The translations under genes were made by a program, and so were the position numbers. 64,000 nucleotides of DNA, taken from assembly GCA_033648345.1 (NCBI GenBank), contig GCA_033648345.1_4121.1; one strand, 5' to 3'. Under the pieces are notes generated by a model. The model did not search any database. It was given only the letters and a program-made list of their open reading frames with translations, and was not told the origin of the DNA. Positions 7,974-19,912 of the stretch are shown piece after piece. The stretch is from a phage. Position 1 is the stretch's first letter. Each line of letters begins with the position of its first letter.

Positions 7974-8320
7974 TTCAACATATAGACAGGGGAAGCTCCG
8001 CAGGGAAAGCATTGGACAGGCTTTAACATATGTTATATATGTTAAAATTCAGCCTGCTCGACGTCTGAATTGTTAAAATTCAGCCTGGACAAATGCGATC
8101 ACTAGGATTCTCCCCAGGCTAAACCCCGTAATCATATGTAGTCATAAGTAATCATATATAAACATTTATGTAATCATTTATAATCATTGTAGTGATTAGT
8201 ATTGAGTACTAGAGTGTAATAGAGTGTAATAGAGTACAGGAATGTGCACGTTTAATCAAGAACGTAGCAGTACTGCCCCAAAAGTATTCAGTACTGAAGG
8301 TGTCGATATCCCACTAAGTA

Positions 8321-8346
8321 GGCAGAGGAAGTCTGCCGTACTTTTT
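8321..8346 (+). terminator. Terminator-like hairpin
   Basis: GGCAGA-GGAAG-TCTGCC followed by GTACTTTTT. Confidence 0.4.
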
Positions 8347-8681
8347 AGTTTCCAAGCTCCTTTTCCATTTTGCAAATTACATCAAATGTAATCAAAAGTA
8401 ATCACGCAATGATTAGTACTGAATTATTACTTTCACCTTAATTTCAATTACCCCTTTACCCTTCGGGGTAAAATTCCATTACCCCTTGAGGCTCCAGCAA
8501 AAAGTTGGTTAGTACTCCATCCTAAATCTCGATCCTAAAAATTTTGGAGTACCTATGAAATAAAAGTTGGATCTTCGAAAGTTGAAATTTACGTTGGGAC
8601 GTTTGTGATTTGTGGGATATAATGATGTTTGTAGTCGGGTAGTTCTCAAGAATATCAGTACTGAATGGTGAAAGAAAGTTA

Positions 8682-8709
8682 TTGACATTATGATTCAGTA
8701 CTGTATAAT
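8682..8709 (+). promoter_or_regulatory. Orphan sigma70-type promoter in non-coding region
   Basis: TTGACA-16-TATAAT followed by GTTTTACAT; no long ORF downstream. Confidence 0.45.
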
Positions 8710-9096
8710 GTTTTACATAGAGAGATGAGTTGCCGCAAACAATTCATTCACTCTACTTCCTGTCGTGAGACAGTACAGAAAGATAGTTCCTCCTATGGGT
8801 GGTACATCTTTTAGAACCTCTTTTTTCGTAATATGAACAGTACTGATATTAACAGAATGGTGTCAATACTGATTTTAATCTAAAGCATTATGCCACCAGC
8901 TTGTGCTGGTGGATTCCCTCTAACAGTATTCAGTACTACATGATAGTCTTCATCCTCCTAGGGTAACATAGTGAGGGCTATGATGGCAGTACTGAATACT
9001 CCTTTCACAAGATAGATCTATGGTATAGTACTGACGTATTTTGGGCGTAGTTACCCTGGATGGATTTTGGACGTAGATATGTCTAGCCCTCCAGAA

Positions 9097-9240
9097 GTCT
9101 GGAAGTAAATATGGCTATCCATCTAGACGGCTAAACGGCTAGATTTCTGGATGGCTGGGTGGCTGGGTGGCTGGGTGGCTAGACGTTTGGACGGCTAAAC
9201 GGCTAGATGGTTACACGTCTGGAAGTATAGACGGCTAAAT
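9097..9240. repeat. Iteron cluster with near-symmetric architecture
   Basis: (GGCTGGGT)x3.5 tandem at 9153-9180 flanked by two copies of TAGACGGCTAAACGGCTAGAT and outer GTCTGGAAGTA repeats. Confidence 0.65.
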
Positions 9241-9998
9241 CAAAATTTTATTTTGTTTTTTCCAATAGTTCCCCTACCGCGTGGGGATAGTTTCCCCGCA
9301 GTATCTGGAGTTAGATTTTTCTGAATCTGGAATCATTATCTTATAAACTGGGGGCAATGTCAACAGCCTGGACGGATATTTTTAAAAATTTTTTCAGTAC
9401 TGAATTTTGGGCGTAACTATGCACCCGGTGGGCTTGAGTCTTTCTCGACTTGATGGAACTATTATACAGTACTGGAAAAATAAAGCAATACCCTGGAAGC
9501 AAAAAAGTTTTAATTAATTTGCTTGCTATCCTGGGCCGGACTATGGTACTATATTTCAGTACTGAGAAAGTGCGTTTACCTGCTAGGGTGCGGGAGTGTA
9601 TCCTTTTTTTATATCTTGAATTTTGGGCGTAATTCCGCACCCTCTGGGGTTTCCGCTTTCTCGCGTCTATGTAGTAATTATACGCTTTTTCAGGATCAAG
9701 TCAATACCTAAAAACAAAATAATTGAAAATAATTTAACGCGTTTAAACGGCCAGTAAAGCCCTGGAATGATTGGAATGGTGCAAATGTATAGCTTAGGTG
9801 TATTAATGCGTTAGAATGCGTCTGAGGCCGTTTTATGGGGTATAGGGATGATTTGGTGGATTGATTCAGTACTGAATAATAGTACTACTATATAGAAAGA
9901 TAGTTCCCCTGGATGGTTGCAGTACTGAATGATAGTACTGAATAATAGTTCCCCTATATAGAAAGAAAACTATTTTAAAAAGTATTTGTAGAAAGTAC

Positions 9999-10026
9999 TT
10001 GCAAACTAAGTTTAACGGCGTATAAT
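9999..10026 (+). promoter_or_regulatory. Class-I early promoter
   Basis: AAAGTACTTGCAA-16-TATAAT-GTTTTACATC consensus. Confidence 0.6.
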
Positions 10027-10081
10027 GTTTTACATCGAGAGCGGGAACACTTCCCGCTACATATTACGAGAGATTAAAACG

Positions 10082-10444
10082 ATGGCGACTCAAATCACTA
10101 AAATTATTGCTAACCTGGTTAACTTCCGCGACGAGATGAAAGGTCTTCCGGCTGAAACGGTAAAAATTCACATCGCAGCTTATCGGGAACTTATTGCAAT
10201 GTTGCCGCTTAAGCGTGAACAATACGCCGCGACCGTGATGCTTGATGCGATGATCCATAAGATGATCGCCAGTGATTTGACGATGGCGTATCAGTATATG
10301 GGTGAATTGTTCGCGGTGTATAGTAAACCAGTACCAGGAATGGAAAGTACAGAAGTATTACACGGTTTAAATTTAAAACAAGATGCATGGGATAATATGC
10401 CTCGTTTCCTGGTATGGGCTGACAGTGGCAAGATTTACGAATAA
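10082..10444 (+). CDS. Hypothetical early protein (120 aa)
   Basis: Start moved from track ORF 10025 to Met after the 5'UTR hairpin GCGGGAACACTTCCCGC. Confidence 0.65.
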   Translation: MATQITKIIANLVNFRDEMKGLPAETVKIHIAAYRELIAMLPLKREQYAATVMLDAMIHKMIASDLTMAYQYMGELFAVYSKPVPGMESTEVLHGLNLKQDAWDNMPRFLVWADSGKIYE

Positions 10445-10458
10445 GTTTTAGAAAGTAC

Positions 10459-10486
10459 TTGCAAACTAAGTTTAAAAGCGTATAAT
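10459..10486 (+). promoter_or_regulatory. Class-I early promoter
   Basis: TTGCAA-16-TATAAT. Confidence 0.6.
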
Positions 10487-10536
10487 GTTTTACATCAGGT
10501 GGGGAATAGTTCCCCACTATATAAGAGGATTAAAAA

Positions 10537-10776
10537 ATGGCTAAATCAAAAATGTTCTTAGGTCACAAAAACAAAACTCATTGGAATGTAAGCCTTTGGA
10601 TTAATAACGATGAGTCATTGTACCGGTTGGCCCTGGACTTTATTGCCGCCAATACTAATCGCAATGATGCGGCCCGTCATATGATGTTATTTTTAGAACA
10701 GACTGGACAAGATAAAACACCGGACGGATTCAAATATAGCACTACTGCGATCCGTGCGGCGATGGTTGGAATGTAA
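10537..10776 (+). CDS. Hypothetical early protein; paralog of 12576..12815
   Basis: Shared GHKNKTxWNVSLWINN...TPDGFKYSTTAIRAAMVGM; SD AAGAGGA. Confidence 0.7.
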   Translation: MAKSKMFLGHKNKTHWNVSLWINNDESLYRLALDFIAANTNRNDAARHMMLFLEQTGQDKTPDGFKYSTTAIRAAMVGM

Positions 10777-10861
10777 TAGAATTTATTTAAAGTACTATCG
10801 CAAAAAATGATAGTACTTTATAATAGTGTTTTATTCATACACCAACGATAAGGGCAACAGC

Positions 10862-11128
10862 ATGAATATTAAGTATTTTGCGACGCGTGAACAAGCTCGG
10901 ATCGCCGCACGCCAGGACGGGGCAACGTTTAAAGATATGGGCGTACAATCGGAACGTGGTAAACGTTGGGCCATTATAAAGCGTAGTACCGCCAGATCAT
11001 TACAGTACTGGTTAGCGGCGTTAAAAAGTCCCGATAGTGTATCGCGTCGAGTGGTAGAAATAAAGCTCGACCGAAAGGGCAACCGCGTGACCGTGTACCG
11101 TACTAAAAAGATTGCAGTACTTGAATAA
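10862..11128 (+). CDS. Hypothetical early protein; paralog of 23885..24280
   Basis: Shared KYFATREQARIAARQDGATFKDMG and DRKGNRVTVY motifs; start moved to MNIKYF. Confidence 0.65.
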   Translation: MNIKYFATREQARIAARQDGATFKDMGVQSERGKRWAIIKRSTARSLQYWLAALKSPDSVSRRVVEIKLDRKGNRVTVYRTKKIAVLE

Positions 11129-11135
11129 AAAGTAC

Positions 11136-11163
11136 TTGCAAACTATGTTTAATGGCGTATAAT
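11136..11163 (+). promoter_or_regulatory. Class-I early promoter
   Basis: TTGCAA-16-TATAAT. Confidence 0.6.
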
Positions 11164-11215
11164 GTTTTACATCGAGAGCGGGAACACTTCCCGCCTATAA
11201 CCTGGAGTAATAAAA

Positions 11216-11446
11216 ATGACTAATATGTATATGACTGAAGTTAAAACCGTAAAAGATACTACCACGAATAAAACTACTTACTTACAGCGGATCTGCGGTG
11301 TATGGCAACGTATCAGCAAATCAAAGTACTTTAAATTAACATCATATGCAAACCGTTCGGATTCATTCAGTACTGAAATAAAAGGTAATAAAGTACACCA
11401 ATACGGCACTTATTATTATTATAGCCTGGACGCGATTGCAGTATAA
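11216..11446 (+). CDS. Hypothetical early protein (76 aa)
   Basis: ORF after promoter, hairpin and SD GGAGT. Confidence 0.6.
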   Translation: MTNMYMTEVKTVKDTTTNKTTYLQRICGVWQRISKSKYFKLTSYANRSDSFSTEIKGNKVHQYGTYYYYSLDAIAV

Positions 11447-11476
11447 GCAGTTTACAAATCTTTACAATTGCCGGTA

Positions 11477-11505
11477 TTGACTTATTTTGTCAGTACTGGC
11501 ATAAT
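11477..11505 (+). promoter_or_regulatory. Promoter of convergent pair (candidate small-RNA promoter)
   Basis: TTGACT-17-CATAAT; no ORF downstream, followed by the conserved CCCA-GGGTGC leader motif. Confidence 0.5.
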
Positions 11506-11620
11506 GTATTCATTGGCAGATAAGCCGTAGCCCATAGGGTGCGGGAGTGTATCTATAGAAAAAGTAGTTTATTACAGTTACAATTGTGCACCCGGTGGGT
11601 TAGCTGTTGTCATGGGGTAT

Positions 11621-11649
11621 ATTATGCCAGTACTTGATAATGCTGTCAA
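11621..11649 (-). promoter_or_regulatory. Convergent minus-strand promoter
   Basis: Reverse complement reads TTGACA-17-CATAAT and faces the promoter at 11477. Confidence 0.5.
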
Positions 11650-11695
11650 TACTTTTTTTTACTATTCAGTACTGAAAACTATTTTTAAAAAGTAC

Positions 11696-11723
11696 TTGCA
11701 AACTATGTTTAAAGGCGTATAAT
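11696..11723 (+). promoter_or_regulatory. Class-I early promoter (P1 of tandem pair)
   Basis: TTGCAA-16-TATAAT followed by structured leader ACATCAGGACGGGGAACG... Confidence 0.55.
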
Positions 11724-11813
11724 GTTTTACATCAGGACGGGGAACGAAATAAGTAACTCCCCGTTAAGTAGCCCAGGAGTAAGGCACACGAAAAACTCCC
11801 CTGATAAAATAGT

Positions 11814-11841
11814 TTGACAAATGTTTTTAAAAGCGTATAAT
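11814..11841 (+). promoter_or_regulatory. Promoter P2 of tandem pair
   Basis: TTGACA-16-TATAAT. Confidence 0.55.
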
Positions 11842-11873
11842 ACTTACATCAACTACTGAATGAGGGTTACAAA

Positions 11874-12485
11874 ATGAAAACTATCACTACTACTACTTTC
11901 GTTATGGATTTTTCTGAATTGAACGCAGAACAAAAAACGTCAGCTATCGAACTGGTTCGGGAACGTGAAAAAAACTCAAACGACAATTATTTTTCTGAAA
12001 GTGAAATTGAATACTATAAAGAAACAGTACTACCGGAATATGGCATTAATGACGCTGAAATACAATTCAGTGGTTTTTGGTCCCAGGGTGACGGTGCATC
12101 AATCAGTACTGACCACGTTGACGGTGTGAAGTTTTTACGCAAGGTAAGAGCATTAACTAAGTATCGCTCAATCCGTCACTTGCTGAATGAAGATGATTTG
12201 GCGATGAGTGTAAAGCGTTCTCATTCTTTGTACTTGCATGAGAATACTGTAAGCGGGTACATTGAATCGGCTTACACTGATTTAACCGCAAAACAAGAAA
12301 CGTTAGTTAATGAGCTTGAGGAACTACTCACTGAAACTATTCGTGAATTATCCCGCAAGTTGTACCGTGATTTAGAGAATGCATATGAGGATCAATTCAC
12401 TACTGAAAACATCGTATCACTGATTGAGGGTAACGAATATCAATTCAATGTTATTGATGGCGTAGTAGAATCAATCGAATATTAA
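11874..12485 (+). CDS. Hypothetical acidic early protein (203 aa)
   Basis: ORF with upstream tandem promoters; SD GAGGG. Confidence 0.7.
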   Translation: MKTITTTTFVMDFSELNAEQKTSAIELVREREKNSNDNYFSESEIEYYKETVLPEYGINDAEIQFSGFWSQGDGASISTDHVDGVKFLRKVRALTKYRSIRHLLNEDDLAMSVKRSHSLYLHENTVSGYIESAYTDLTAKQETLVNELEELLTETIRELSRKLYRDLENAYEDQFTTENIVSLIEGNEYQFNVIDGVVESIEY

Positions 12486-12497
12486 TTCAAAAAGTAC

Positions 12498-12525
12498 TTG
12501 CAAACTAAGTTTAAAAGCGTATAAT
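12498..12525 (+). promoter_or_regulatory. Class-I early promoter
   Basis: TTGCAA-16-TATAAT. Confidence 0.6.
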
Positions 12526-12575
12526 ACTTTATATCGAGGCGGGGAGTGGTTCCCCGCTCAAACGAGGATTTAAAA

Positions 12576-12815
12576 ATGGCTAGTACTAAAACTTATAACG
12601 GACACAAAAACAAAACTCAATGGAATGTAAGCCTTTGGATTAATAACGGTGAGTCATTGTATCGGCTTGCACAAAGTTGTATCGCACAAAGTAGAACTAA
12701 AGATATTGCAGCGGAATGCATGTACCGCAGATTAAAAGCCAACGGTACTACTACAACGCCGGACGGCTTTAAGTATAGCACTACTGCGATCCGTGCTGCA
12801 ATGGTTGGAATGTAA
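12576..12815 (+). CDS. Hypothetical early protein; paralog of 10537..10776
   Basis: Start moved to MASTKTYNGHK after hairpin GGCGGGGAGTGGTTCCCCGC. Confidence 0.7.
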   Translation: MASTKTYNGHKNKTQWNVSLWINNGESLYRLAQSCIAQSRTKDIAAECMYRRLKANGTTTTPDGFKYSTTAIRAAMVGM

Positions 12816-12873
12816 TATTCAGTACTGTAACAATGGCGGGGAATGGTTCCCGCCTTTATTGAGGGTTTATCTA

Positions 12874-13134
12874 ATGAGTAAAGTAATTAACTATACAGTA
12901 CTAAGCAAGTCATTGTCTATCAGTGAATGCACCGATGGTTTTTGGCTTTATGATGAAACGCGTGGAATGAATTTAGCTATGCGTGTAAAAACTGCTGAGG
13001 CGGCGTATCTTGAGGCACTGGAATACTACCAGGAACGTTTAACGGAAGTAGAAGAAGATTATAAAAGCCTCAAAGCGAAAGTAGATCATTTCGTCGGTCA
13101 ATTCATCGAGGAAGACGACGATAAACAATACTGA
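12874..13134 (+). CDS. Hypothetical early protein (86 aa)
   Basis: Start moved to MSKVINY after hairpin GGCGGGGAATGGTTCCCGCC and SD GAGGG. Confidence 0.6.
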   Translation: MSKVINYTVLSKSLSISECTDGFWLYDETRGMNLAMRVKTAEAAYLEALEYYQERLTEVEEDYKSLKAKVDHFVGQFIEEDDDKQY

Positions 13135-13222
13135 AAAAAAGTACTTGCAATTAGTTTTCAGTACTGTATAATAGTTTACATCAAGTGGAGAAATGGTTCT
13201 CCCTGGTAATGAGGAAAATAAA

Positions 13223-13444
13223 ATGGCTAATATCACTACTCTTTCCCAACTGGAAGCACTGGTTAAATCTATGCGGGAACATGCCGACAAAATCGGCGTA
13301 CAAGATCCAGCCGTTTGCTTCTGCGACGAATTGAATGATGATACCCTTGTAATAGCAGAAGTCCAGGACGTTTCTAACTATTCCTCGCGTTACACTGGCG
13401 GCGTAGCAAATAAAGGCGACTTCTGTTTATACCTTACAAAATAA
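13223..13444 (+). CDS. Hypothetical early protein (73 aa)
   Basis: Start moved to MANITT after hairpin and SD. Confidence 0.6.
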   Translation: MANITTLSQLEALVKSMREHADKIGVQDPAVCFCDELNDDTLVIAEVQDVSNYSSRYTGGVANKGDFCLYLTK

Positions 13445-13449
13445 CAACG

Positions 13450-13480
13450 CGGGGAGATAATAACTCCCCGTTACTTTTTC
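13450..13480 (+). terminator. Rho-independent terminator
   Basis: CGGGGAGATAATAACTCCCCG followed by TTACTTTTT. Confidence 0.6.
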
Positions 13481-13550
13481 AGTACTGAATCATTTAATAG
13501 ACGGATCTATGCACCCGGTGGGTTAGTGACTGTTTCGTCTTGATGTAGTA

Positions 13551-13579
13551 ATTATGCCAGTACTGGATGCAGTTGTCAA
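13551..13579 (-). promoter_or_regulatory. Minus-strand promoter with conserved leader (candidate small RNA)
   Basis: Reverse complement TTGACA-17-CATAAT followed by ACATCAAGACG...CCCACCGGGTGCAT; no ORF. Confidence 0.45.
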
Positions 13580-13612
13580 CAACTATTTTTCAAATACTTT
13601 TTATTAAAATAC

Positions 13613-13640
13613 TTGCAATTAGTTTTTAAACGCGTATAAT
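13613..13640 (+). promoter_or_regulatory. Class-I early promoter
   Basis: TTGCAA-16-TATAAT. Confidence 0.55.
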
Positions 13641-13687
13641 GTTTTGCATAGGGGGAGCGGTTCCCCTGGTAACTAAGGAATAATAAA

Positions 13688-13924
13688 ATGCTTGAACAAA
13701 TCAAATCAACGTCTGCGAATGTAACGGGAACGGTAGCACACTTTACTAGTGATGAATCGCGGGGCGTTCCCTATTGTGCTGTACATGTAAACACTGATGG
13801 CAACTACTGGTTTACGGTTTACGGATCATATTCATTTGGACGGCCTGGGCATCAAAAAATTCTGGATAAAGTACAACCAACGGGTAAAAATATCACTGCC
13901 GAAATGTTTTATAAAAAATCATAA
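13688..13924 (+). CDS. Hypothetical early protein (78 aa)
   Basis: Hairpin GGGGGAGCGGTTCCCC then SD AAGGAA. Confidence 0.65.
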   Translation: MLEQIKSTSANVTGTVAHFTSDESRGVPYCAVHVNTDGNYWFTVYGSYSFGRPGHQKILDKVQPTGKNITAEMFYKKS

Positions 13925-13929
13925 AGTAC

Positions 13930-13957
13930 TTGATAATAGTTTTTAGTACTGTATAAT
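13930..13957 (+). promoter_or_regulatory. Early promoter
   Basis: TTGATA-16-TATAAT. Confidence 0.5.
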
Positions 13958-14008
13958 ATTTTACATCGCAAGGGGGAGCGGTTCCCCCTAGTAACTAAGG
14001 ATAATCAA

Positions 14009-14308
14009 ATGAAAATTGCAATCATCGCCCTGGCTTTATCTGTTTCCTCTTTCGCTGTTAATGCGTCATTAGATGTAAGTAGTGAAAAATTCATTCAGTG
14101 CACTGTTGCAATGACCGATGAAAGAACTGGCGAGATTGTATTAAAGGATTTAGAGATCCAGCCGGAAGCATTTAAAAACGGCCCGTTCCATGAAGAAGAC
14201 GAAAACGGTAGCACAACAATTTATTATGATGCCAGTACTAAACGCGGTTCGGTCACTGTAATGGATACTGAGAAAGTAACTCATACTGGCGTTATTAATT
14301 GCCGTTGA
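14009..14308 (+). CDS. Small secreted/periplasmic protein
   Basis: N-terminal signal-peptide-like MKIAIIALALSVSSFAVNA. Confidence 0.65.
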   Translation: MKIAIIALALSVSSFAVNASLDVSSEKFIQCTVAMTDERTGEIVLKDLEIQPEAFKNGPFHEEDENGSTTIYYDASTKRGSVTVMDTEKVTHTGVINCR

Positions 14309-14329
14309 TAGATACTACGGGGTAACATC

Positions 14330-14560
14330 ATGACTAAGCGAATTGTTTTACTTAACGAAAGCAGTACTACACAACTACTTAACGCCGTGCATTATGATAT
14401 TGAAACGAGCGTTAATCTTATCAGTACTGTAGTACTGTTGGACACTGGAAAGGTCGCCAATGATAAAGCGATTGCAGGTATATTAACGGATCTTGAGCCT
14501 GGTAGCAGTGCACCAATAACGTTAAATGGTAAAGTGTTTAATATTTTACTCACTGATTAA
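14330..14560 (+). CDS. Hypothetical protein (76 aa)
   Basis: ORF closely following upstream gene. Confidence 0.55.
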   Translation: MTKRIVLLNESSTTQLLNAVHYDIETSVNLISTVVLLDTGKVANDKAIAGILTDLEPGSSAPITLNGKVFNILLTD

Positions 14561-14566
14561 GTACAT

Positions 14567-14594
14567 AGCCCACCTGGTGGGCTTTTTTGTTTTT
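14567..14594 (+). terminator. Rho-independent terminator
   Basis: AGCCCACC-TGGTGGGCT followed by TTTTTTGTTTTTG. Confidence 0.75.
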
Positions 14595-14642
14595 GTAGTA
14601 TCGTAGTACTGAGATACTTTGAAAATAGTTTTAAAAAAGTAG

Positions 14643-14670
14643 TTGACATTACCGCAGAAAAGCGTAGAAT
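14643..14670 (+). promoter_or_regulatory. Early promoter
   Basis: TTGACA-16-TAGAAT followed by conserved leader ACATCAAGACGGGGAGC. Confidence 0.5.
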
Positions 14671-14793
14671 GTATTACATCAAGACGGGGAGCACTAAGTA
14701 GACCGCCAGTAAGTCGAACGAAAAACTGGACACGTCGAGAAAACTTTGATACACTAATAAACGTAAACTAAACTTTAATTGAGGATTTATAAA

Positions 14794-15276
14794 ATGGCTA
14801 ATGTAAAATCATTCATCAAAGCACTGGTAGCAAATGAAACTAACGTCGCGGCAGAGATCCTGGCTGAACTGGATAACGATACCATGAAAGCGGTACGCAA
14901 TAATTTTAACATCGCGTACAGTACTGCGAAAGAACTACAAGCAAATAAAGCAGCAGAGATCGAGGCAGCAAAGGCGGCCCGTGAAGCAGAACTACAAGCA
15001 ACAATTGAAAGTATTCAGGCGGCAGTAGTTGGATTGGATCTGGAAGTAGTTACAGAGATGGCACAAAAAGCCCTGGCGAAAAAGTACGGGGAAGACAAGC
15101 CAGAAGTAAAAGCCAAAAAATGGATTCAAGAACGTGTAGCGGTAGTACTTGATAATGGGGAAGAATATCTGATTCCGGTGCGTGGTAACTGCATTGCTGT
15201 AGTACTGGATGCGATTAACTCCAGCGGTATGACTCGCGAGGAATGGATCGAAGCTCATCGCAAAGTGGAAGCATAA
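14794..15276 (+). CDS. Hypothetical protein with Ala/Glu-rich helical segment (160 aa)
   Basis: Start moved to MANVKSF after SD GAGGA. Confidence 0.65.
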   Translation: MANVKSFIKALVANETNVAAEILAELDNDTMKAVRNNFNIAYSTAKELQANKAAEIEAAKAAREAELQATIESIQAAVVGLDLEVVTEMAQKALAKKYGEDKPEVKAKKWIQERVAVVLDNGEEYLIPVRGNCIAVVLDAINSSGMTREEWIEAHRKVEA

Positions 15277-15297
15277 CAATTAAAGTACTGAATCACT

Positions 15298-15325
15298 AGC
15301 CCACTGTATAAGTGGGCTTTTTTGT
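15298..15325 (+). terminator. Rho-independent terminator
   Basis: AGCCCAC-TGTATAA-GTGGGCT followed by TTTTTTG. Confidence 0.75.
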
Positions 15326-15477
15326 GTTTATCGTTTACCAGGCCACCAGCACCGCCTAGAATCGATTCTAACGCATTAAACTGATTATCTGATGCATCGC
15401 CCTAGCTGGTGGAGTTAAGGCCGTTAGAATGCGATTTAGAGCGTTTAAAGTATTTTGCAAAAAGTAATAAAAAGTAC

Positions 15478-15505
15478 TTGCACGATTCAGAGATTAGCGT
15501 ATAAT
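15478..15505 (+). promoter_or_regulatory. Class-I early promoter
   Basis: TTGCAC-16-TATAAT. Confidence 0.5.
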
Positions 15506-15550
15506 GTTTTACATCAAGGCGAAACACCTTAACTAACTGAGGATATAAAG

Positions 15551-15703
15551 ATGAATACTTATGAACTGGATTGTTTCACTATGCAAGTAATGTTAGTATG
15601 CAGTAAAAAAGAATGGTCATCAAAGGAATTTAAAGCAGTTATTGCGTGTGCAAAACACGGCAAGACTATCAATGAAACGGCATCAATCATTGATAAACTT
15701 TAA
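15551..15703 (+). CDS. Small hypothetical protein (50 aa, absent from ORF track)
   Basis: Manual translation MNTYELDCFTMQ... with SD GAGGA. Confidence 0.45.
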   Translation: MNTYELDCFTMQVMLVCSKKEWSSKEFKAVIACAKHGKTINETASIIDKL

Positions 15704-15711
15704 AAAATAGT

Positions 15712-15740
15712 TTGACAATAGTTTTAAGTACTGACATAAT
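15712..15740 (+). promoter_or_regulatory. Class-II early promoter
   Basis: TTGACA-17-CATAAT with AGTACTG before the -10. Confidence 0.6.
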
Positions 15741-15773
15741 ACATACATCAACTACTGAATAGGAATCAAAACA

Positions 15774-16001
15774 ATGGCTATCGTAATCACTCGCGTATCT
15801 GGTACTACTGGCAATTCTTCTACTGTTGCTGTAATTACTAATAAGAAAGGTGCGGAATTACATTTTGCAATGAATACCTGGGCGGTGAATGAGTTCGGTC
15901 AGTGGGCTAGTGTAGAATACATTGAAACCTATCAAGTGCCAACCATTAGCTTAACGGATCTCGGCGTAGATCGTATCTTATGCCTGGATGAATTAAATTA
16001 A
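15774..16001 (+). CDS. Hypothetical early protein (75 aa)
   Basis: ORF after promoter; SD AGGAA. Confidence 0.65.
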   Translation: MAIVITRVSGTTGNSSTVAVITNKKGAELHFAMNTWAVNEFGQWASVEYIETYQVPTISLTDLGVDRILCLDELN

Positions 16002-16008
16002 AAAAGTA

Positions 16009-16037
16009 CTTGCAAAGTAAATCAAATAAAGTATAAT
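16009..16037 (+). promoter_or_regulatory. Class-I early promoter
   Basis: TTGCAA-17-TATAAT; hairpin GGGGAGAAATGGTTCTCCCC at 16050-16069. Confidence 0.6.
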
Positions 16038-16086
16038 ACATTACATCAAGGGGAGAAATGGTTCTCCCCACTACAAGGAAACTAAA

Positions 16087-16230
16087 ATGAAAACTTGTCA
16101 ATGTGGTCAGAAATCTATTACGGGTTTAAAGCGGGGCGTTGCTCTTTGCCAGTACCATTATAATTTACAAGTATGGGGTAAAGAATGGGCCGACCAGGTG
16201 GAAGCAGCAAAGAAAGCAAAAAGTAAGTAA
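16087..16230 (+). CDS. Small Cys-containing (zinc-ribbon-like) protein (47 aa, absent from ORF track)
   Basis: Manual translation MKTCQCGQKS...CQYH with SD AAGGAA. Confidence 0.5.
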   Translation: MKTCQCGQKSITGLKRGVALCQYHYNLQVWGKEWADQVEAAKKAKSK

Positions 16231-16311
16231 AAATATTATCACAGTACTATTGACATAGTTTGATAGTACTGGCATAATAGATTTTATCAAGACAACTAAG
16301 AGGAAACAATA
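16221..16311 (+). repeat. Duplicated ~91-bp promoter cassette (copy 1)
   Basis: Near-identical to 16515..16605; contains TTGACA-17-CATAAT and SD AAGAGGAAA. Confidence 0.8.
16250..16278 (+). promoter_or_regulatory. Class-II early promoter
   Basis: TTGACA-17-CATAAT. Confidence 0.6.
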
Positions 16312-16524
16312 ATGGCTATCATCACAAAAATCAAAGTAAACAAATCACTGGTTAAGCTGGAAGAAGTGAAAGAAGGTTATAAAGTATCGTGGTGCGGCAT
16401 GTATCGGATTTTTACAGATGTTGACGATGCAATCAATTACTACACTGACACGGTAAAAAACTTTGTTCGTGCTGATGTGGTTATGGCAGTGGCAACACAC
16501 AAAGCATCGAAAGAAAGTAAGTAA
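16312..16524 (+). CDS. Hypothetical early protein (70 aa)
   Basis: ORF downstream of duplicated promoter cassette. Confidence 0.65.
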   Translation: MAIITKIKVNKSLVKLEEVKEGYKVSWCGMYRIFTDVDDAINYYTDTVKNFVRADVVMAVATHKASKESK

Positions 16525-16605
16525 AAATATTATCACAGTACTATTGACATAGTTTGATAGTACTGGCATAATAGATTTTATCAAGACAACTAAGAGGAAA
16601 TTAAA
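16515..16605 (+). repeat. Duplicated ~91-bp promoter cassette (copy 2)
   Basis: Near-identical to 16221..16311. Confidence 0.8.
16544..16572 (+). promoter_or_regulatory. Class-II early promoter
   Basis: TTGACA-17-CATAAT. Confidence 0.6.
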
Positions 16606-16950
16606 ATGGCTAACATCAACACTATCGCAGCACAAAATATCAACCTGTCTTCTGTTGAAGTTGTACATATTGCCGCTCGGCGTTGGTTCCAGGCTTCATA
16701 TGGTAACACTTATTTCTCTTTAAGTGTAGACGTAGAAATTGATGGTAATTTTATTGAAGTAGTAAACGTGCCGTTCCAATATGGATACGGGGATCATTTT
16801 GACACTGTAGCAATGGAAGAATTTAGCAAGGTTATTAATATGGAAGGTAAAGAGTTTTTACGCGGTTCTTATCTTTCACGTTTTTGCCGTGATAATAATA
16901 TCACTGTTTACAGTTCGGTAACTGATGTTAAACGCAAAAAAGATCTTTAA
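16606..16950 (+). CDS. Hypothetical early protein; paralog of 23466..23789
   Basis: Shared GNTY...F.YGYG...DVKRKKD motifs. Confidence 0.7.
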   Translation: MANINTIAAQNINLSSVEVVHIAARRWFQASYGNTYFSLSVDVEIDGNFIEVVNVPFQYGYGDHFDTVAMEEFSKVINMEGKEFLRGSYLSRFCRDNNITVYSSVTDVKRKKDL

Positions 16951-17030
16951 TTAGCTTTACTTTATGCAGATACTTTGATATAGTGTCTGCATAGGGGAAA
17001 GAAATTAAATTAACTTAAGAGGATAGTATA

Positions 17031-17300
17031 ATGAAAAATATCAGTACTTTAATTGATGCAGGTACACATGTTCGGCGGTCTATGGTTGCAACCAGTACTA
17101 CAAAACAAGTAGCAAGCGGTTATCTTGTATTTGTGCACGATGGAAAACTCCTGGAACGTTCAATCAATTTTGATGTTAAAAACAATTGCCGTTTTATTAT
17201 TTTTAAGCGTGAACAATATAAAATTGATTTACCAGCGAAGCCCATTAGCGGGGCGTATAACGTCTATTCATTGTTTGAGCGTCAACCATACACCTATTAA
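17031..17300 (+). CDS. Hypothetical protein (89 aa)
   Basis: SD AAGAGGA; upstream inverted repeat TGCAGA...TCTGCA. Confidence 0.6.
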   Translation: MKNISTLIDAGTHVRRSMVATSTTKQVASGYLVFVHDGKLLERSINFDVKNNCRFIIFKREQYKIDLPAKPISGAYNVYSLFERQPYTY

Positions 17301-17351
17301 TCAAAACATCGTTAGCGGTCGATTTAGGCCGCTTATATTGGGGATTATACC

Positions 17352-17624
17352 ATGAACGTTAATCAAGTACTGAATGAGATCGAAAGCATCATTAAACCAA
17401 TGAAACGCATTGATGCTATGTTAACACCGGAAGAATGCCGCCTTTATGAGCGTTACAGCGTCGAACAAGTCCAGGCAATGGCTATGGCTACCCCAGCCGT
17501 TAAACAGCCTGAGAACGCGTTACAGGACGTTACAGGGGATTATATCATCAATCCAGTACTAGGGAAGATGGCGGCAATCACCGAAGATCAACAAGACTAC
17601 TTAAGCCAGTACTTAAAAGGTTAA
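17352..17624 (+). CDS. Hypothetical protein (90 aa)
   Basis: ORF with SD GGGGA. Confidence 0.6.
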   Translation: MNVNQVLNEIESIIKPMKRIDAMLTPEECRLYERYSVEQVQAMAMATPAVKQPENALQDVTGDYIINPVLGKMAAITEDQQDYLSQYLKG

Positions 17625-17629
17625 TTAAT

Positions 17630-17839
17630 ATGCTTACTGTACAGGATAAGATCGACATCTTAAAGGTTAATATGTATGTGATTGATGCCGTACCTGGTAA
17701 AGTATTTGCATACGATGACACTACTGTAAGCGATTTCTACTATAGCCAGGCCGTGGGGGATCTTTCTGTACAGTCGGTTATTGAAAACGTAGTTAATGCA
17801 GCGTATGAGCATTTACTTTCAAATAGTACTTGCAATTAG
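17630..17839 (+). CDS. Hypothetical protein (69 aa)
   Basis: ORF whose 3' end overlaps the next promoter. Confidence 0.55.
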   Translation: MLTVQDKIDILKVNMYVIDAVPGKVFAYDDTTVSDFYYSQAVGDLSVQSVIENVVNAAYEHLLSNSTCN

Positions 17840-17857
17840 TTTTTAAACGCGTATAAT
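17830..17857 (+). promoter_or_regulatory. Class-I early promoter
   Basis: TTGCAA-16-TATAAT; hairpin GGGGAGAAATGATTCTCCCC follows. Confidence 0.6.
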
Positions 17858-17908
17858 GTTTTACATGAAGGGGAGAAATGATTCTCCCCACTAATTAAGG
17901 AATATGAA

Positions 17909-18055
17909 ATGAAAGCATCAAAAAAGAGTAATACTAAGAAAGCACGTTCACCTTTCGCTGGGGTATTCCCTTTACGTTTCGTTGATGAAGTGGTTTCCTA
18001 CCCGCCGGGCCTTACTCCTGAGATGGTAGAAAGTTTGCGTAAATCTAAAAAATAG
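17909..18055 (+). CDS. Small basic protein (48 aa, absent from ORF track)
   Basis: Manual translation MKASKKSNTKKARSPFAG... with SD AAGGAA. Confidence 0.5.
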   Translation: MKASKKSNTKKARSPFAGVFPLRFVDEVVSYPPGLTPEMVESLRKSKK

Positions 18056-18058
18056 TAC

Positions 18059-18086
18059 TTGCAATTAGTTTTTAAACGCGTATAAT
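18059..18086 (+). promoter_or_regulatory. Class-I early promoter
   Basis: TTGCAA-16-TATAAT; hairpin at 18099-18118. Confidence 0.6.
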
Positions 18087-18136
18087 GTTTTACATAGAGG
18101 GGAGAAATGGTTCTCCCCAATAACAGGAGAATCAAA

Positions 18137-18289
18137 ATGAAACAATACAATGCTCGGTTTGATGTTACTATCGGCAACGGCAAAGGTCAATTTTCTTTCA
18201 GTACTCGCCGCAGTTATACAGAAAACTTCCTGCGTAATTGTGCACTGACCGCCGCACAAATTAAACATTACTTCCAGGCTAAAAAATGA
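18137..18289 (+). CDS. Small hypothetical protein (50 aa)
   Basis: Start moved to MKQYNARF after SD AGGAGAA. Confidence 0.6.
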   Translation: MKQYNARFDVTIGNGKGQFSFSTRRSYTENFLRNCALTAAQIKHYFQAKK

Positions 18290-18375
18290 AATCATTAGCT
18301 TATTACAGTTCAGCGGTGATCGGTGCATTGATCGCGGCATTGTTAGTAACCTATCTATTCTTTATGGTGATTTAA
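18286..18375 (+). CDS. Tiny hydrophobic membrane peptide (29 aa)
   Basis: ATGA-coupled ORF MKSLAYYSSAVIGALIAALLVTYLFFMVI; a single TM-length hydrophobic stretch. Confidence 0.45.
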   Translation: MKSLAYYSSAVIGALIAALLVTYLFFMVI

Positions 18376-18510
18376 ATGAATCCTAACGGTTTAATTTACA
18401 GTACTCCTAAAACGAAAGCAGATAAAGCGAAAGCACGTAAAGCGAAAGTAAAGGAGTACATTAAGCAAGGCATGACGCGAAAGGCGGCAGTACTGAAAGC
18501 TAAAAAATAA
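18376..18510 (+). CDS. Small Lys-rich basic protein (44 aa)
   Basis: Manual translation MNPNGLIYSTPKTKADKAKARKAKVKEY... Confidence 0.45.
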   Translation: MNPNGLIYSTPKTKADKAKARKAKVKEYIKQGMTRKAAVLKAKK

Positions 18511-18520
18511 ATGAAAAAAG

Positions 18521-18550
18521 TGGTTGACTTCGGTCAGCCATTTTGCTATT
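18521..18550 (+). terminator. Rho-independent terminator
   Basis: TGGTTGAC-TTCG-GTCAGCCA followed by TTTTGCTATTAT. Confidence 0.7.
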
Positions 18551-18645
18551 ATATATTCATTGAGAGATAGCTCACTAGCCCACCGGGTGCATAAGTGTAT
18601 CTATTATATAAGTATTGAGTACTGAAAACTATTTTTAAAAAGTAC

Positions 18646-18673
18646 TTGCAAACTATCTCAATAAGCGTATAAT
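18646..18673 (+). promoter_or_regulatory. Class-I early promoter
   Basis: TTGCAA-16-TATAAT. Confidence 0.6.
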
Positions 18674-18724
18674 GTTTTACATCGAAAGGGGAAACGGTTT
18701 CCCCTGGTAATAAGGAAACAAATC

Positions 18725-19066
18725 ATGACTATTGCAATTGCTCAATCTAACTTTGAAAATGAAATCATCGCCCAGGCACTGCGTTTAAATGATGGTCGGG
18801 CCGAAATTAATTACGGTTTCAATTCAGGCGGTTGTGAAAAATATCAGTACTTTGTAACTGCTGATGGCGGTGTCCTGGGCATCAATACCGTTATTGTAAA
18901 CATTCAGAAAATTAATTTCAATGATCCAGACGATAGCCAGTTTTACATTGTAGGCGTAGACGTGAACTATGAGGATGACTCACTAACTGATGATCACACT
19001 GGCGAGCGGTTAGAAAGTGCATACGGTGAAGATGATTATCAGTCCGGTCCAGAAGATTTCGAATAA
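18725..19066 (+). CDS. Hypothetical acidic protein (113 aa)
   Basis: ORF after promoter, hairpin GGGGAAACGGTTTCCCC and SD AAGGAA. Confidence 0.7.
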   Translation: MTIAIAQSNFENEIIAQALRLNDGRAEINYGFNSGGCEKYQYFVTADGGVLGINTVIVNIQKINFNDPDDSQFYIVGVDVNYEDDSLTDDHTGERLESAYGEDDYQSGPEDFE

Positions 19067-19079
19067 TATAAAAAATAGT

Positions 19080-19107
19080 TTGACAATAGATTATAGTACT
19101 GTATAAT
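19080..19107 (+). promoter_or_regulatory. Class-II early promoter
   Basis: TTGACA-16-TATAAT. Confidence 0.6.
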
Positions 19108-19157
19108 TAATTACATCAAGGGGAGAATAGTTCTCCCCAACTAAGAGGAAAAAGAAA

Positions 19158-19340
19158 ATGGCTGAATTAATCGCTCGGAATACAATTGCAGGCGTTGAAG
19201 ATGTAACATTATCATATGATTCAGATAAACAAGTTTACGTCGTTCGTTATGGTCTGATTGGTGTTAACGTTGATTATATTGATGAAGCCTTTGAAAAATA
19301 CTTTGAATTTATTAATATGGCTTATAATGATTATCGTTAA
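19158..19340 (+). CDS. Hypothetical early protein (60 aa)
   Basis: Promoter, hairpin GGGGAGAATAGTTCTCCCC, SD AAGAGGA. Confidence 0.65.
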   Translation: MAELIARNTIAGVEDVTLSYDSDKQVYVVRYGLIGVNVDYIDEAFEKYFEFINMAYNDYR

Positions 19341-19348
19341 AAAATAGT

Positions 19349-19376
19349 TTGACAATAGATTATAGTACTGTATAAT
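19349..19376 (+). promoter_or_regulatory. Class-II early promoter
   Basis: TTGACA-16-TATAAT. Confidence 0.6.
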
Positions 19377-19430
19377 AGTTTACATCAAGGGGAGAAAAAC
19401 TTCTCCCCACTAACAGAGAGAGAAAACAAA

Positions 19431-19643: not shown

Positions 19644-19733
19644 AATATATTACCAGTACTATTGACAACGTTTGATAGTACTGTATAATAAGTTTTATAA
19701 ACAGTAGTTAACTTAACCTAAGAGAGAAACAAA

Positions 19734-19877: not shown

Positions 19878-19883
19878 TATTAT

Positions 19884-19912
19884 AGCCCACTGGTTAACGC
19901 TGGTGGGCTTTA
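19884..19912 (+). terminator. Terminator-like hairpin
   Basis: AGCCCAC-12 nt-GTGGGCT followed by TTTAATCATTT. Confidence 0.5.

What the first reader, a model, noticed from the sequence alone, without database searches (positions are those of the whole stretch)
9097..9240. Near-symmetric iteron cluster centred on (GGCTGGGT)x3.5
Layout: GTCTGGAAGTA .. TAGACGGCTAAACGGCTAGAT .. (GGCTGGGT)x3.5 .. GACGGCTAAACGGCTAGAT .. GTCTGGAAGTA .. TAGACGGCTAAA. Ordered repeats of this kind in a long non-coding region are typical of replication origins, packaging signals or partition sites, where a protein binds cooperatively.
Basis: partly seen in the sequence, partly recalled or inferred. Interest (0 to 1): 0.6.

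Follow-up and report, generated by a model that had tools for sequence, protein, structure and literature searches.

The report
Host MetJ-box array near phage genome end
The "iteron cluster" is a run of about twenty back-to-back 8-bp copies of the binding site for the bacterial methionine repressor MetJ, sitting about 0.8 kb inside the physical end of a giant E. coli phage genome. The same kind of array recurs in the terminal repeats of unrelated phages, which suggests these viruses recruit a host metabolic sensor to their DNA ends.

Summary
The repeats are real. They form one uninterrupted 8-bp register of 20 units (9077-9236), the most 8-periodic stretch in the 64-kb window.

The window is an Asteriusvirus (PBECO4/121Q-like jumbo coliphage). 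By homology to fEgEco12, whose termini were mapped experimentally, the array lies 760-920 bp inside the left end of a ~21.4-kb direct terminal repeat, in non-coding DNA.

The units match the E. coli MetJ "met box" (AGACGTCT). With the published matrix and thresholds, only this array stands out in the window: 6 boxes at 41 bits and 7 boxes at 53 bits. That is stronger than the genuine metJ/metB and metF operators.

Relatives differ by multiples of 8 bp and keep box quality despite about 30% divergence. Equivalent arrays occur in the terminal repeats of T5-like, T7-like and other jumbo phages. All but one of their hosts belong to orders that have MetJ.

No phage MetJ or ribbon-helix-helix gene, DnaA box, rep gene or par gene was found.

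Best reading: a cooperative MetJ·SAM loading pad near the genome end. Binding and function are inferred, not shown. Origin, pac-site and partition-site readings are not supported.

The parts
9077..9236 (.). Full 8-bp tandem array: 20 in-phase units, array consensus AGACGGCT (met-box-like; canonical met box AGACGTCT).
   Evidence: Unit list and scores. Lag-8 periodicity. Array consensus and r=0.88 against the MetJ matrix.
9077..9108 (.). Left fringe of the array: alternating good and poor units. ATATGTCT scores 8.6, AGCCCTCC 0.1, AGAAGTCT 8.6 and GGAAGTAA 0.3 bits.
9109..9156 (.). Run of 6 consecutive boxes that pass the published MetJ criteria, 41.2 bits in total.
   Evidence: Thresholds are from PMC3228920.
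9157..9180 (.). Each is a weak box of 1.1 bits. This is a derived, strain-specific expansion. Relatives have GGATGGCT or AGATGGCT (5.9-8.1 bits) here.
9181..9236 (.). Run of 7 consecutive passing boxes, 53.2 bits. It includes AGACGTTT, ACACGTCT and AGACGGCT. The near-identical motif AGACGTTTAGACGGCTAAA is shared with T5-like and T7-like phages.
8317..29734 (+). Direct terminal repeat (about 21.4 kb), placed by homology. Position 8317 corresponds to the physical left end of the virion DNA.
   Evidence: The records of vB_Ec-M-J (annotated repeat 1-21525) and fEgEco12 start at AGTAGGCAGAGG, which is window 8317. [quoted passage not shown] The right boundary was mapped.
8392..10024 (.). Non-coding leader of the terminal repeat that contains the array. 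No credible ORF and no Rfam family.
8682..8709 (+). Perfect sigma-70 consensus promoter (TTGACA-16-TATAAT), 365 bp from the DNA end and pointing inward. The array lies about 360-520 bp downstream of it.
9335..9363 (-). Sigma-70-like promoter (TTGACA-17-GATAAT) pointing toward the array from the right. The array begins about 90 bp downstream of its predicted start.
   Evidence: The -10 region is invariant in 10 relatives.
8893..8912 (.). Hairpin made of two inverted Chi sites (CCACCAGC-TTGT-GCTGGTGG), 576 bp from the end and 165 bp before the array.
   Evidence: Annotated as a 'terminator' in G17.

Best explanation
The array is a long tandem series of MetJ operator sites (met boxes). About 13-15 are good boxes out of 20 units here, and close relatives have 12-15 in an unbroken run. 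It lies in the non-coding leader of the phage's direct terminal repeat, 0.76-0.92 kb from the physical DNA end.

Proposed mechanism. Once this DNA is in the cytoplasm, host MetJ dimers charged with S-adenosylmethionine bind one per 8-bp box. Neighbouring dimers contact each other, as they do on natural met operators. On this array they would polymerise into a continuous filament over about 110-160 bp.

Proposed role. I take the filament to be a cis-acting host-protein pad at the genome end, dependent on the host's SAM/methionine state. It would act as a block or anchor on the terminal segment. It sits between the inward-facing end-proximal promoter (8682) and the early genes. It would be the counterpart of the host-factor site clusters, such as DnaA boxes, in the injection-stop region of T5-type phages.

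Status of each step. Shown: the anatomy, the sequence match to MetJ sites, conservation, and the position relative to the terminus. Inferred: MetJ occupancy. Speculative: the downstream role.
For: (1) Published criteria are met. Using the MetJ matrix and thresholds of Augustus & Spicer, only four runs pass in 64 kb. Two are in the array (6 boxes at 41.2 bits, 7 boxes at 53.2 bits). The other two are marginal 2-box hits.

(2) The method is calibrated. On E. coli K-12 4126000-4134500 it finds exactly the metJ/metB operator (31.2 bits) and the metF operator (24.9 bits), and nothing else. In 200 shuffles of the window the maximum was 21.9 bits and 3 boxes.

(3) The frequency matrices agree. The matrix of all in-phase units from 11 phage lineages correlates with the MetJ matrix at r=0.93. 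Every other register gives r<=0.04. The consensus of three of the arrays is exactly AGACGTCT.

(4) The register is preserved. All indels among 10 Asteriusvirus genomes are multiples of 8 bp, apart from a 1-bp slip in an 'UNVERIFIED' record. fEgEco12 has 15 boxes in one unbroken run, 108.7 bits.

(5) Box quality is under selection. Neutral drift of 20-30% would leave 0.9 to -1.6 bits per unit. Diverged relatives keep 6.0-6.9 bits per unit, with 81-92% of units passing.

(6) Units occur in both orientations, for example AGATGGCT and AGCCATCT. That is expected for a two-fold symmetric binder.

(7) The arrays recur in unrelated phages. They are found in Mimasvirus and Eneladusvirus jumbo phages, in T5-family phages of Aeromonas, Vibrio and Providencia, in T7-family phiKT, and in Pseudoalteromonas PH1, which has 42 units.

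(8) Host range fits. In one search, 90 of 91 hit records are phages of Enterobacterales, Vibrionales, Aeromonadales or Alteromonadales, which are four of the five orders that possess MetJ.

(9) No phage MetJ exists in 50,697 phage records. No ribbon-helix-helix family was found in 85 ORFs of the repeat and its flanks.

(10) The geometry is shared. The array lies inside the terminal repeat, 36 bp to about 0.8 kb from a physical end, with the same polarity, in all three phage families. In the T5-likes it sits next to the DnaA boxes of the injection-stop region.
Against: No binding data exist. Everything rests on sequence.

Position 6 of the unit is G as often as the preferred T. That costs 1.3 bits and removes one predicted base contact per box.

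The context is unlike any known MetJ operator. There is no methionine gene, the array does not overlap a promoter, and it is 3-4 times longer than the two genuine E. coli operators scored here.

One carrier, XbC2, was isolated on Xanthomonas vesicatoria, whose order lacks MetJ.

The conserved polarity and a shared 19-mer across phage families point to horizontal transfer of a module. The match to MetJ may therefore have arisen fewer times than the number of lineages suggests.

The other proteins restricted to the same bacterial clade were not excluded by any test other than sequence specificity.

T5 and XaC1 lack the array, so it is dispensable for this lifestyle.
Confidence: 0.55

Rival explanations
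1. MetJ sponge. The array does bind MetJ, but its job works in trans. Amplified by phage replication, and doubled by the terminal repeat, it would titrate the repressor. That would de-repress the host met regulon, including metK, and raise methionine and SAM supply for the phage.
For: The array is much longer than a promoter needs. It has 13-21 boxes, against the 4 found by the same method in the metJ/metB and metF operators. Box number drifts freely between relatives. The array does not overlap a promoter. Decoy arrays for transcription factors are an established principle (PMC3322331).
Against: A sponge needs no particular location. Yet the array is always inside the terminal repeat, close to a physical end, with conserved polarity, in three phage families. 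In T5-likes it neighbours other host-factor sites, the DnaA boxes. There is only one array per unique genome.
Confidence: 0.15
2. A phage-encoded protein, not MetJ, binds the array. It might be a small ribbon-helix-helix or terminase small-subunit-like protein. The array would then be a packaging, end-recognition or partition element, and its likeness to met boxes would be coincidental.
For: The array lies 760 bp from the cut site and inside the terminal repeat in every family examined. From general knowledge, short tandem arrays are classic targets of ribbon-helix-helix proteins such as omega and ParG. Many small ORFs here have no assignable function.
Against: By general knowledge, jumbo myoviruses, T5-like siphoviruses and T7-like podoviruses share no terminase small subunit, yet they carry the same units and even the same 19-mer. 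No MetJ, Arc, CopG, ParG or Omega family hit was found in 85 ORFs. No MetJ homologue exists in any phage record. A coincidental r=0.93 match to the MetJ matrix, in one register only, is improbable. No such arrays occur in plasmids.
Confidence: 0.18
3. Replication-origin iterons.
For: A 30-bp AT-rich stretch follows the array at 9238-9268. The cumulative GC-skew minimum lies within about 1 kb. In T5-likes the equivalent array neighbours DnaA boxes.
Against: The period is 8 bp rather than helical-phase iterons. No DnaA box lies within kilobases. No initiator gene is detected nearby. The skew flip is at 7.5-8.3 kb, on the repeat boundary, not on the array. T5 origins map elsewhere, according to the review read.
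Confidence: 0.05
4. A neutral minisatellite produced by replication slippage, with no function.
For: Copy number varies between close relatives by whole units, and a mutated unit (GGGTGGCT) has expanded in this genome.
Against: Box quality is held at 6-7 bits per unit across about 30% divergence, where drift predicts about 0. Independent arrays with different unit mixes converge on AGACGTCT. Location and polarity are conserved across families.
Confidence: 0.05
5. An RNA-level element. The array would be transcribed from the 8682 or 9363 promoter and act as a repeat-rich non-coding RNA, for example a protein sponge like CsrB.
For: It lies downstream of two sigma-70-type promoters and contains no ORF.
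Against: No Rfam family matches at E<=1. The conserved positions follow the palindromic MetJ DNA matrix, and units occur in both orientations. That fits double-stranded DNA recognition, not an RNA motif.
Confidence: 0.03

Closest known systems
E. coli MetJ operators (metJ/metB, metF, metA, metE/R, metK, metNIQ): tandem 8-bp met boxes bound cooperatively by MetJ·SAM ribbon-helix-helix dimers
   Same: The period is 8 bp with no spacers. The base preferences per position are the same (r=0.93). The published box and site thresholds are passed, and individual boxes are as good as or better than natural ones.
   Different: There are 13-21 boxes instead of 2-5 (the 2-5 range is from memory; this method found 4 boxes in each of the two operators scored). 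The array is not at a methionine gene and does not overlap a promoter. G is frequent at position 6. It is carried by virulent phages inside their terminal repeats.
T5 'Repeat Region 3' / injection-stop-signal region of Demerecviridae (Davison, bioRxiv 10.1101/866236)
   Same: Both are untranslated, repeat-dense regions at a terminal-repeat boundary carrying clustered host-protein sites (DnaA boxes). In Aeromonas, Vibrio and Providencia T5-likes, the same met-box array sits directly beside those DnaA boxes.
   Different: T5 itself has no met-box run. The Asteriusvirus region has no DnaA boxes. Two-step DNA transfer has not been reported for Asteriusvirus, as far as the papers read here show. 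The array is near the left end in the jumbo phages but near the inner boundary of the left repeat in T5-likes.
Host transcription-factor boxes in virulent phage genomes: Spo0A boxes of phi29/Nf (PMC2731898) and CtrA boxes of alphaproteobacterial phages (PMC9437464)
   Same: A lytic phage carries binding sites for a host regulator that reports cell state, and so couples infection to host physiology (abstracts seen).
   Different: Those are scattered single sites at promoters and origins with demonstrated effects. Here there is one long contiguous array, a metabolic (SAM) sensor, and no functional data.
Ribbon-helix-helix centromere/operator arrays (omega heptads of pSM19035; ParG sites of TP228), cited from general knowledge
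   Same: Contiguous short repeats of 7-8 bp, in direct and inverted orientation, coated by a protein filament.
   Different: Those are bound by a protein encoded next to the site and belong to partition operons. No such gene was found here, and no plasmid has a similar array.
T7 short-repeat arrays flanking its terminal repeat (CCTAAAG series), from general knowledge; not tested here
   Same: Arrays of short direct repeats adjacent to or inside the terminal repeat of a phage with direct terminal repeats, of unknown function.
   Different: Different motif and spacing (about 12-13 bp), and no link to a known host protein. The T7-family phage phiKT carries the met-box type instead.

Membership tests
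MetJ operator (tandem met boxes) | 8-bp units in immediate tandem, in one register | tested here: met
   20 units at 9077-9236 in a single phase. Lag-8 identity is 0.61. Indels among relatives are multiples of 8.
MetJ operator (tandem met boxes) | Each box scores at least 1/4 of the consensus, at least 2 boxes are adjacent, and the site total is at least the consensus score (12.58 bits), per Augustus & Spicer 2011 | tested here: met
   6 boxes at 41.2 bits and 7 boxes at 53.2 bits. Relatives have 12-15 boxes at 89-109 bits. Control operators score 24.9-31.2 bits and the shuffle maximum is 21.9 bits.
MetJ operator (tandem met boxes) | Base preferences per position match the MetJ matrix | tested here: met
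   r=0.93 pooled and 0.88 for this window. Other registers give r<=0.04. The only deviation is G alongside T at position 6.
MetJ operator (tandem met boxes) | The host possesses MetJ | tested here: met
   E. coli metJ is annotated. Hosts of array-bearing phages fall in MetJ-bearing orders. The one exception is XbC2 on Xanthomonas.
MetJ operator (tandem met boxes) | Positioned at the promoter of a methionine-pathway gene | tested here: not met
   There is no ORF in the leader between 8.7 and 9.3 kb. No methionine-pathway family was found among 85 ORFs. The nearest promoter hexamer is about 95 bp away.
MetJ operator (tandem met boxes) | SAM-dependent binding of MetJ and repression | not testable with these tools
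   Needs gel shift or footprinting, ChIP, or reporter assays.
Origin iterons | 17-22-bp repeats in helical phase, with an adjacent unwinding element, DnaA boxes and an initiator gene | tested here: not met
   The period is 8 bp. There are no DnaA boxes within kilobases. No initiator family was found. Only a 30-bp AT-rich stretch is present.
Terminase recognition (pac/cos) site | Bound by the phage's own terminase small subunit, next to the cut site | tested here: inconclusive
   The array is 760 bp from the mapped end. The same array in phages of three families argues against a terminase-specific site. Binding was not testable.
Plasmid-type centromere (parC/parH/omega sites) | Repeat array adjacent to a parA/parM gene plus an adaptor (often ribbon-helix-helix) gene | tested here: not met
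   No such Pfam families in 85 ORFs covering 31 kb. No similar array in 72,556 plasmids.
T5-type injection-stop region | Untranslated repeat region at a terminal-repeat boundary, paired DnaA boxes, and cis-acting arrest of DNA transfer | tested here: inconclusive
   An untranslated repeat region at the repeat boundary is present. A homologous array is present in the T5-like injection-stop regions. DnaA boxes are absent here. Arrest of transfer is not testable.

The most novel reading that the evidence does not exclude
Virulent phages of at least three unrelated families (jumbo Asterius-, Mimas- and Eneladusviruses; T5-like Demerecviridae of Vibrio, Aeromonas and Providencia; T7-like phiKT), plus Pseudoalteromonas phage PH1, have placed long arrays of host MetJ operator boxes in non-coding DNA, inside the terminal repeat wherever the ends are known. 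They would use MetJ·SAM as a structural and regulatory component of genome-end biology: a SAM-gated nucleoprotein block or anchor that controls DNA entry and early transcription. If so, MetJ would be a host factor for the T5-type injection-stop signal, whose host factor is still unidentified. It would also reveal a class of phage 'host-protein landing pads' that read host metabolic state.
Probability: 0.3. Interest if true: 0.85.

Novelty: new variant of a known kind. Interest (0 to 1): 0.68.

Why it matters
If MetJ really coats these arrays, lytic phages would be reading the host's methionine/SAM status, or exploiting an abundant cooperative DNA binder, right at their genome ends. No paper found in five literature searches links MetJ to phage terminal repeats.

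It gives a concrete, cheap-to-test candidate for the unidentified host component of the injection-stop region in T5-like phages. It also offers a functional handle on the large, unannotated non-coding leader of the terminal repeat in Rak2/PBECO4-type jumbo phages.

It also matters for phage engineering and therapy. The array is a conserved, unit-variable marker at a fixed distance from the physical terminus.

Tried and rejected
- Rfam scan of 8000-10500 at E<=1 found nothing.
- DnaA-box search found no site within kilobases of the array, and the window count is below chance.
- tblastn of E. coli MetJ against all phage records returned only three bacterial contaminants.
- Pfam scan of 85 ORFs (window 1-31 kb) found no ribbon-helix-helix, MetJ, Par or initiator family.
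- BLAST of the array against 5,426 E. coli genomes found no match. Against 72,556 plasmids it found only a trivial (GGCTGGGT)n hit in an actinomycete. The array is therefore not a host repetitive element or a plasmid centromere.
- A scan of species-representative bacterial genomes with RGANGNCT x4 was meant to test taxonomic restriction.
- I looked for a Fur box overlapping the 9363 promoter. The window has no match of at least 14 of 19 positions there, so this was dropped.
- The right boundary of the terminal repeat (about 29734) has no comparable repeats.
- XaC1, the second 'Xanthomonas' jumbo phage, has no met-box run in its first 40 kb. That fits an accessory element but does not settle the XbC2 exception.
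- Literature searches for MetJ together with phage, terminal repeats or host-factor screens found no prior report.

Full report
**1. What genome this is and where the finding sits**

The 1.6-kb stretch around the finding matches 42 phage records at 91-96% identity. All are PBECO4/121Q/G17-type jumbo coliphages of the genus Asteriusvirus.

Several records begin 84 bp before window 8400. The vB_Ec-M-J record annotates 1-21525 as 'Direct Terminal Repeats', and its first bases (AGTAGGCAGAGGAAGTCTGCC) are window 8317. For fEgEco12, the 20,993-bp repeat and the linear ends were determined with PhageTerm and confirmed with restriction digests. Mapping its repeat end onto the window puts the right boundary at about 29734.

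So the finding lies 760-920 bp inside the left physical end of the virion DNA. It sits in a roughly 1.7-kb leader without credible ORFs and without any Rfam match.

**2. The observation**

They are facets of one object: 20 consecutive 8-bp units in a single register, 9077-9236.

- Self-identity is 0.61 at lag 8 and stays at 0.56-0.61 at lags 16, 24 and 32. Other lags give about 0.2.
- This is the most 8-periodic 160-bp stretch in the whole window, more than 8 sd above the mean.
- All copies are direct. The 'near symmetry' is only in the order of the unit variants.

**3. What the units are**

Read from 9125, the units are AGACGGCT, AAACGGCT, AGATTTCT, GGATGGCT, (GGGTGGCT)x3, AGACGTTT, GGACGGCT, AAACGGCT, AGATGGTT, ACACGTCT, GGAAGTAT and AGACGGCT.

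From memory this resembled the E. coli MetJ 'met box' (AGACGTCT, 8 bp, bound in immediate tandem), so I tested it. I took the published information matrix and site criteria (PMC3228920).

- In the 64-kb window, four runs pass. Two are in the array (6 boxes at 41.2 bits, 7 boxes at 53.2 bits). The other two are marginal 2-box hits of 13.6 and 15.7 bits, which is the level shuffles produce.
- As a calibration, the same script on 8.5 kb of E. coli K-12 found exactly the metJ/metB operator (31.2 bits) and the metF operator (24.9 bits), and nothing else.
- In 200 shuffles of the window, the maximum was 21.9 bits and 3 boxes.
- The frequency matrix built from all in-phase units, weak ones included, of 11 phage lineages correlates with the MetJ matrix at r=0.93. 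The seven other registers give r<=0.04. The only systematic difference is G as often as T at position 6.

**4. Variation in close relatives**

In 10 Asteriusvirus genomes every indel in the array is a multiple of 8 bp. The only exception is a 1-bp slip in a record flagged 'UNVERIFIED'.

Relatives have GGATGGCT or AGATGGCT there. This gives unbroken runs of 12 boxes (G17), 14 (PBECO4, vB_Ec-M-J) and 15 (fEgEco12, 108.7 bits). The most divergent member, EJP2, has 21 passing boxes.

**5. Selection**

A simulation of neutral substitution on the window's array gives 0.9 bits per unit at 20% divergence and -1.6 at 30%. The maxima over 5000 runs were 4.5 and 3.3. EJP2, XbC2, GAP32, Serratia BF and fHe-Yen9-04 align to the window at only 70-78% identity here. 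They retain 6.0-6.9 bits per unit, with 81-92% of units passing.

**6. The same array in unrelated phages**

A sensitive BLAST with the region, and then with arrays found that way, hit only the array portion in the following phages:

| Group | Examples | Array |
|---|---|---|
| Mimasvirus | XbC2, Kaldavass, GAP32, CBB | 13-14 passing boxes |
| Eneladusvirus | Serratia BF, fHe-Yen9-04, Erwinia pEa_SNUABM phages | 11-13 passing boxes (BF, fHe-Yen9-04) |
| T5 family (Demerecviridae) | Aeromonas AhP_Mru1; Vibrio Pontus; Providencia PR1 | 15 consecutive boxes, about 110 bits, in AhP_Mru1 and Pontus |
| T7 family (Autographiviridae) | E. coli phiKT | 9 boxes |
| Unclassified | Pseudoalteromonas PH1 | 42 units, consensus exactly AGACGTCT |

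- Units occur in both orientations (AGATGGCT and AGCCATCT). That fits a two-fold symmetric binder.
- In the search, 90 of 91 hit records are phages of Escherichia, Salmonella, Erwinia, Serratia, Cronobacter, Pectobacterium, Vibrio, Aeromonas or Pseudoalteromonas. These hosts fall in four of the five orders that have MetJ.
- The exception is XbC2, isolated on Xanthomonas vesicatoria. In this region it is nearly identical to the Erwinia phage Kaldavass.
- No phage record encodes a MetJ homologue.
- T5 itself and XaC1 have no array.
- Neither E. coli genomes nor plasmids contain anything similar.

**7. Shared geometry**

| Phage | Terminal repeat | Array position |
|---|---|---|
| fEgEco12 | 20,993 bp, ends verified | 795-914 from the end |
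| CBB | 1-22456 | 685-804 |
| XbC2 | 17,581 bp (PhageTerm) | 648-775 |
| Providencia PR1 (T5-like) | left repeat 1-10461 | 9620-9691 |
| phiKT-like contig, 42,686 bp | first 259 nt repeated at the other end | 36-107 |

In PR1, the array is about 770 bp from the right physical end in the right-hand repeat copy. Its polarity reading inward is the same as in the jumbo phages.

In the Aeromonas, Vibrio and Providencia T5-likes, the array lies directly beside DnaA boxes. In Aeromonas and Vibrio it also precedes GTGCAAATCCGAC-type repeats. That is the place that in T5 is 'Repeat Region 3', the candidate cis-acting injection-stop signal. The Davison preprint does not mention MetJ.

**8.

- Origin. 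The period is 8 bp. No DnaA box lies within kilobases and no initiator family was found in 85 ORFs. GC skew does flip sign, but at 7.5-8.3 kb, on the repeat boundary and the end of a block of small genes, not on the array.
- Packaging. The cut site is 760 bp away and is itself flanked by 10-bp-phased GTAATCA repeats. A terminase-specific site would not be shared by three phage families.
- Partition. No par genes were found and there is no plasmid counterpart.

**9. Mechanism**

Shown:
- A phase-locked array of MetJ-type boxes.
- It is maintained by selection.
- It sits at a fixed place near the genome end.
- It recurs in phages of MetJ-bearing hosts.

Inferred from established knowledge of MetJ: the MetJ dimer binds one box with SAM as co-repressor, and adjacent dimers contact each other. 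Repression requires at least two adjacent boxes. On 12-15 contiguous boxes this should give a continuous filament over 100-120 bp.

Role (speculative). I favour a cis-acting, SAM-dependent nucleoprotein block or anchor on the terminal segment, for three reasons.
- Location and polarity are conserved. A trans-acting sponge does not require that.
- The array lies between a perfect inward-facing sigma-70 promoter 365 bp from the end and the first genes at 10025.
- In T5-likes it is embedded among other host-protein sites in the genetically defined stop region.

A MetJ sponge and plain SAM-responsive control of the neighbouring promoters remain live alternatives.

**10. Comparison and novelty**

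By sequence and architecture, this meets the tested defining features of a MetJ operator, except genomic context. It is not at a methionine gene or on a promoter.

It works like the Spo0A boxes of phi29 or the CtrA boxes of alphaproteobacterial phages, which are host-state sensors on lytic phage DNA. It also works like the DnaA-box cluster of the T5 stop region. No paper found in five literature searches links MetJ to phage DNA ends.

I rate it a new variant of a known kind. The main caveat is that binding and function are untested.

Noticed in passing
window 8893-28371 (all inside the terminal repeat 8317-29734): There are 12 perfect Chi sites (GCTGGTGG) where 0.62 are expected, and none lies outside the repeat. 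Eight are on the + strand at 19899-28371, so they face a RecBCD enzyme entering from the right end. One minus-strand site lies 576 bp from the left end. XaC1 shows the same enrichment (9 plus-strand and 3 minus-strand sites in 40 kb). T5 has two plus-strand sites in its left repeat.
   Followed up: partly
window 8893-8912: A hairpin annotated as a terminator in G17 is in fact two inverted Chi sites (CCACCAGC-TTGT-GCTGGTGG). It is conserved in vB_Ec-M-J. XbC2 has a minus-strand Chi site at 216, before its array.
   Followed up: partly
whole window; dense in 8260-10000: AGTACT occurs 286 times, about 5 per kb, in coding DNA as well. It is often extended to the palindrome CAGTACTG (64 times). It is absent from 30-36 kb and 38-44 kb. 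It is equally dense in XaC1 (276 in 40 kb). It could be a genome-wide binding or modification motif or a promoter element.
   Followed up: partly
window 8128-8235 and 8381-8404: 10-bp-phased GTAATCA / GTAATAGAGT / ATCAAAAGTA repeats flank the physical terminus (8317) on both sides. They are better candidates for the terminase recognition site than the array.
   Followed up: no
window ~7500-8300: GC skew switches sharply from about -0.25 to about +0.1, exactly at the junction between the unique right end and the terminal repeat. Genes are on the + strand on both sides of the switch.
   Followed up: partly
window 9038-9078, 9404-9470, 9620-9680: ATTTTGGGCGTA occurs four times. Two longer paralogous units (…GCACCC..GGG…TTTCTCG…) lie downstream of minus-strand sigma-70-like promoters at about 9497 (read by eye) and 9704. 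They are conserved in Mimasvirus, Eneladusvirus and XaC1. They may be small non-coding RNAs.
   Followed up: no
L009 (T5 AY587007) 9468-9640; L140 (Serratia BF) 1034; L138 (fHe-Yen9-04) 344: T5's DRC/DRE repeats in the injection-stop region match the Fur-box consensus at 15-16 of 19 positions. The same element (GCGAATGAGAATCATTAC) lies about 250 bp after the met-box array in Eneladusvirus jumbo phages, and one copy precedes the array in Aeromonas AhP_Mru1. The evidence is weak, because matches of at least 14 of 19 arise about 9 times per 64 kb by chance.
   Followed up: partly
L006 2640-2660; L007 2625-2650; T5 9661-9668: In Aeromonas and Vibrio T5-likes the array ends about 10-20 bp before CCCTCCTGCGCC. 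That aligns with the T5 'major single-stranded nick 1, 7.9%' site (CCCTGCGC), which marks the boundary of first-step DNA transfer.
   Followed up: no
window 478-2879 (minus strand) and scattered ORFs up to 31 kb: Two RCC1-repeat proteins lie just before the block of small genes. Single hits to a ParE-like toxin, a DksA/TraR zinc finger and a GNAT acetyltransferase occur among the ORFs of the repeat and its flanks.
   Followed up: no
window 30248-30263 and 45293-45308: Two isolated 2-box met-box pairs score 13.6 and 15.7 bits. This is the level expected by chance (mean 1.9 such runs per shuffle), so they are probably not functional.
   Followed up: yes
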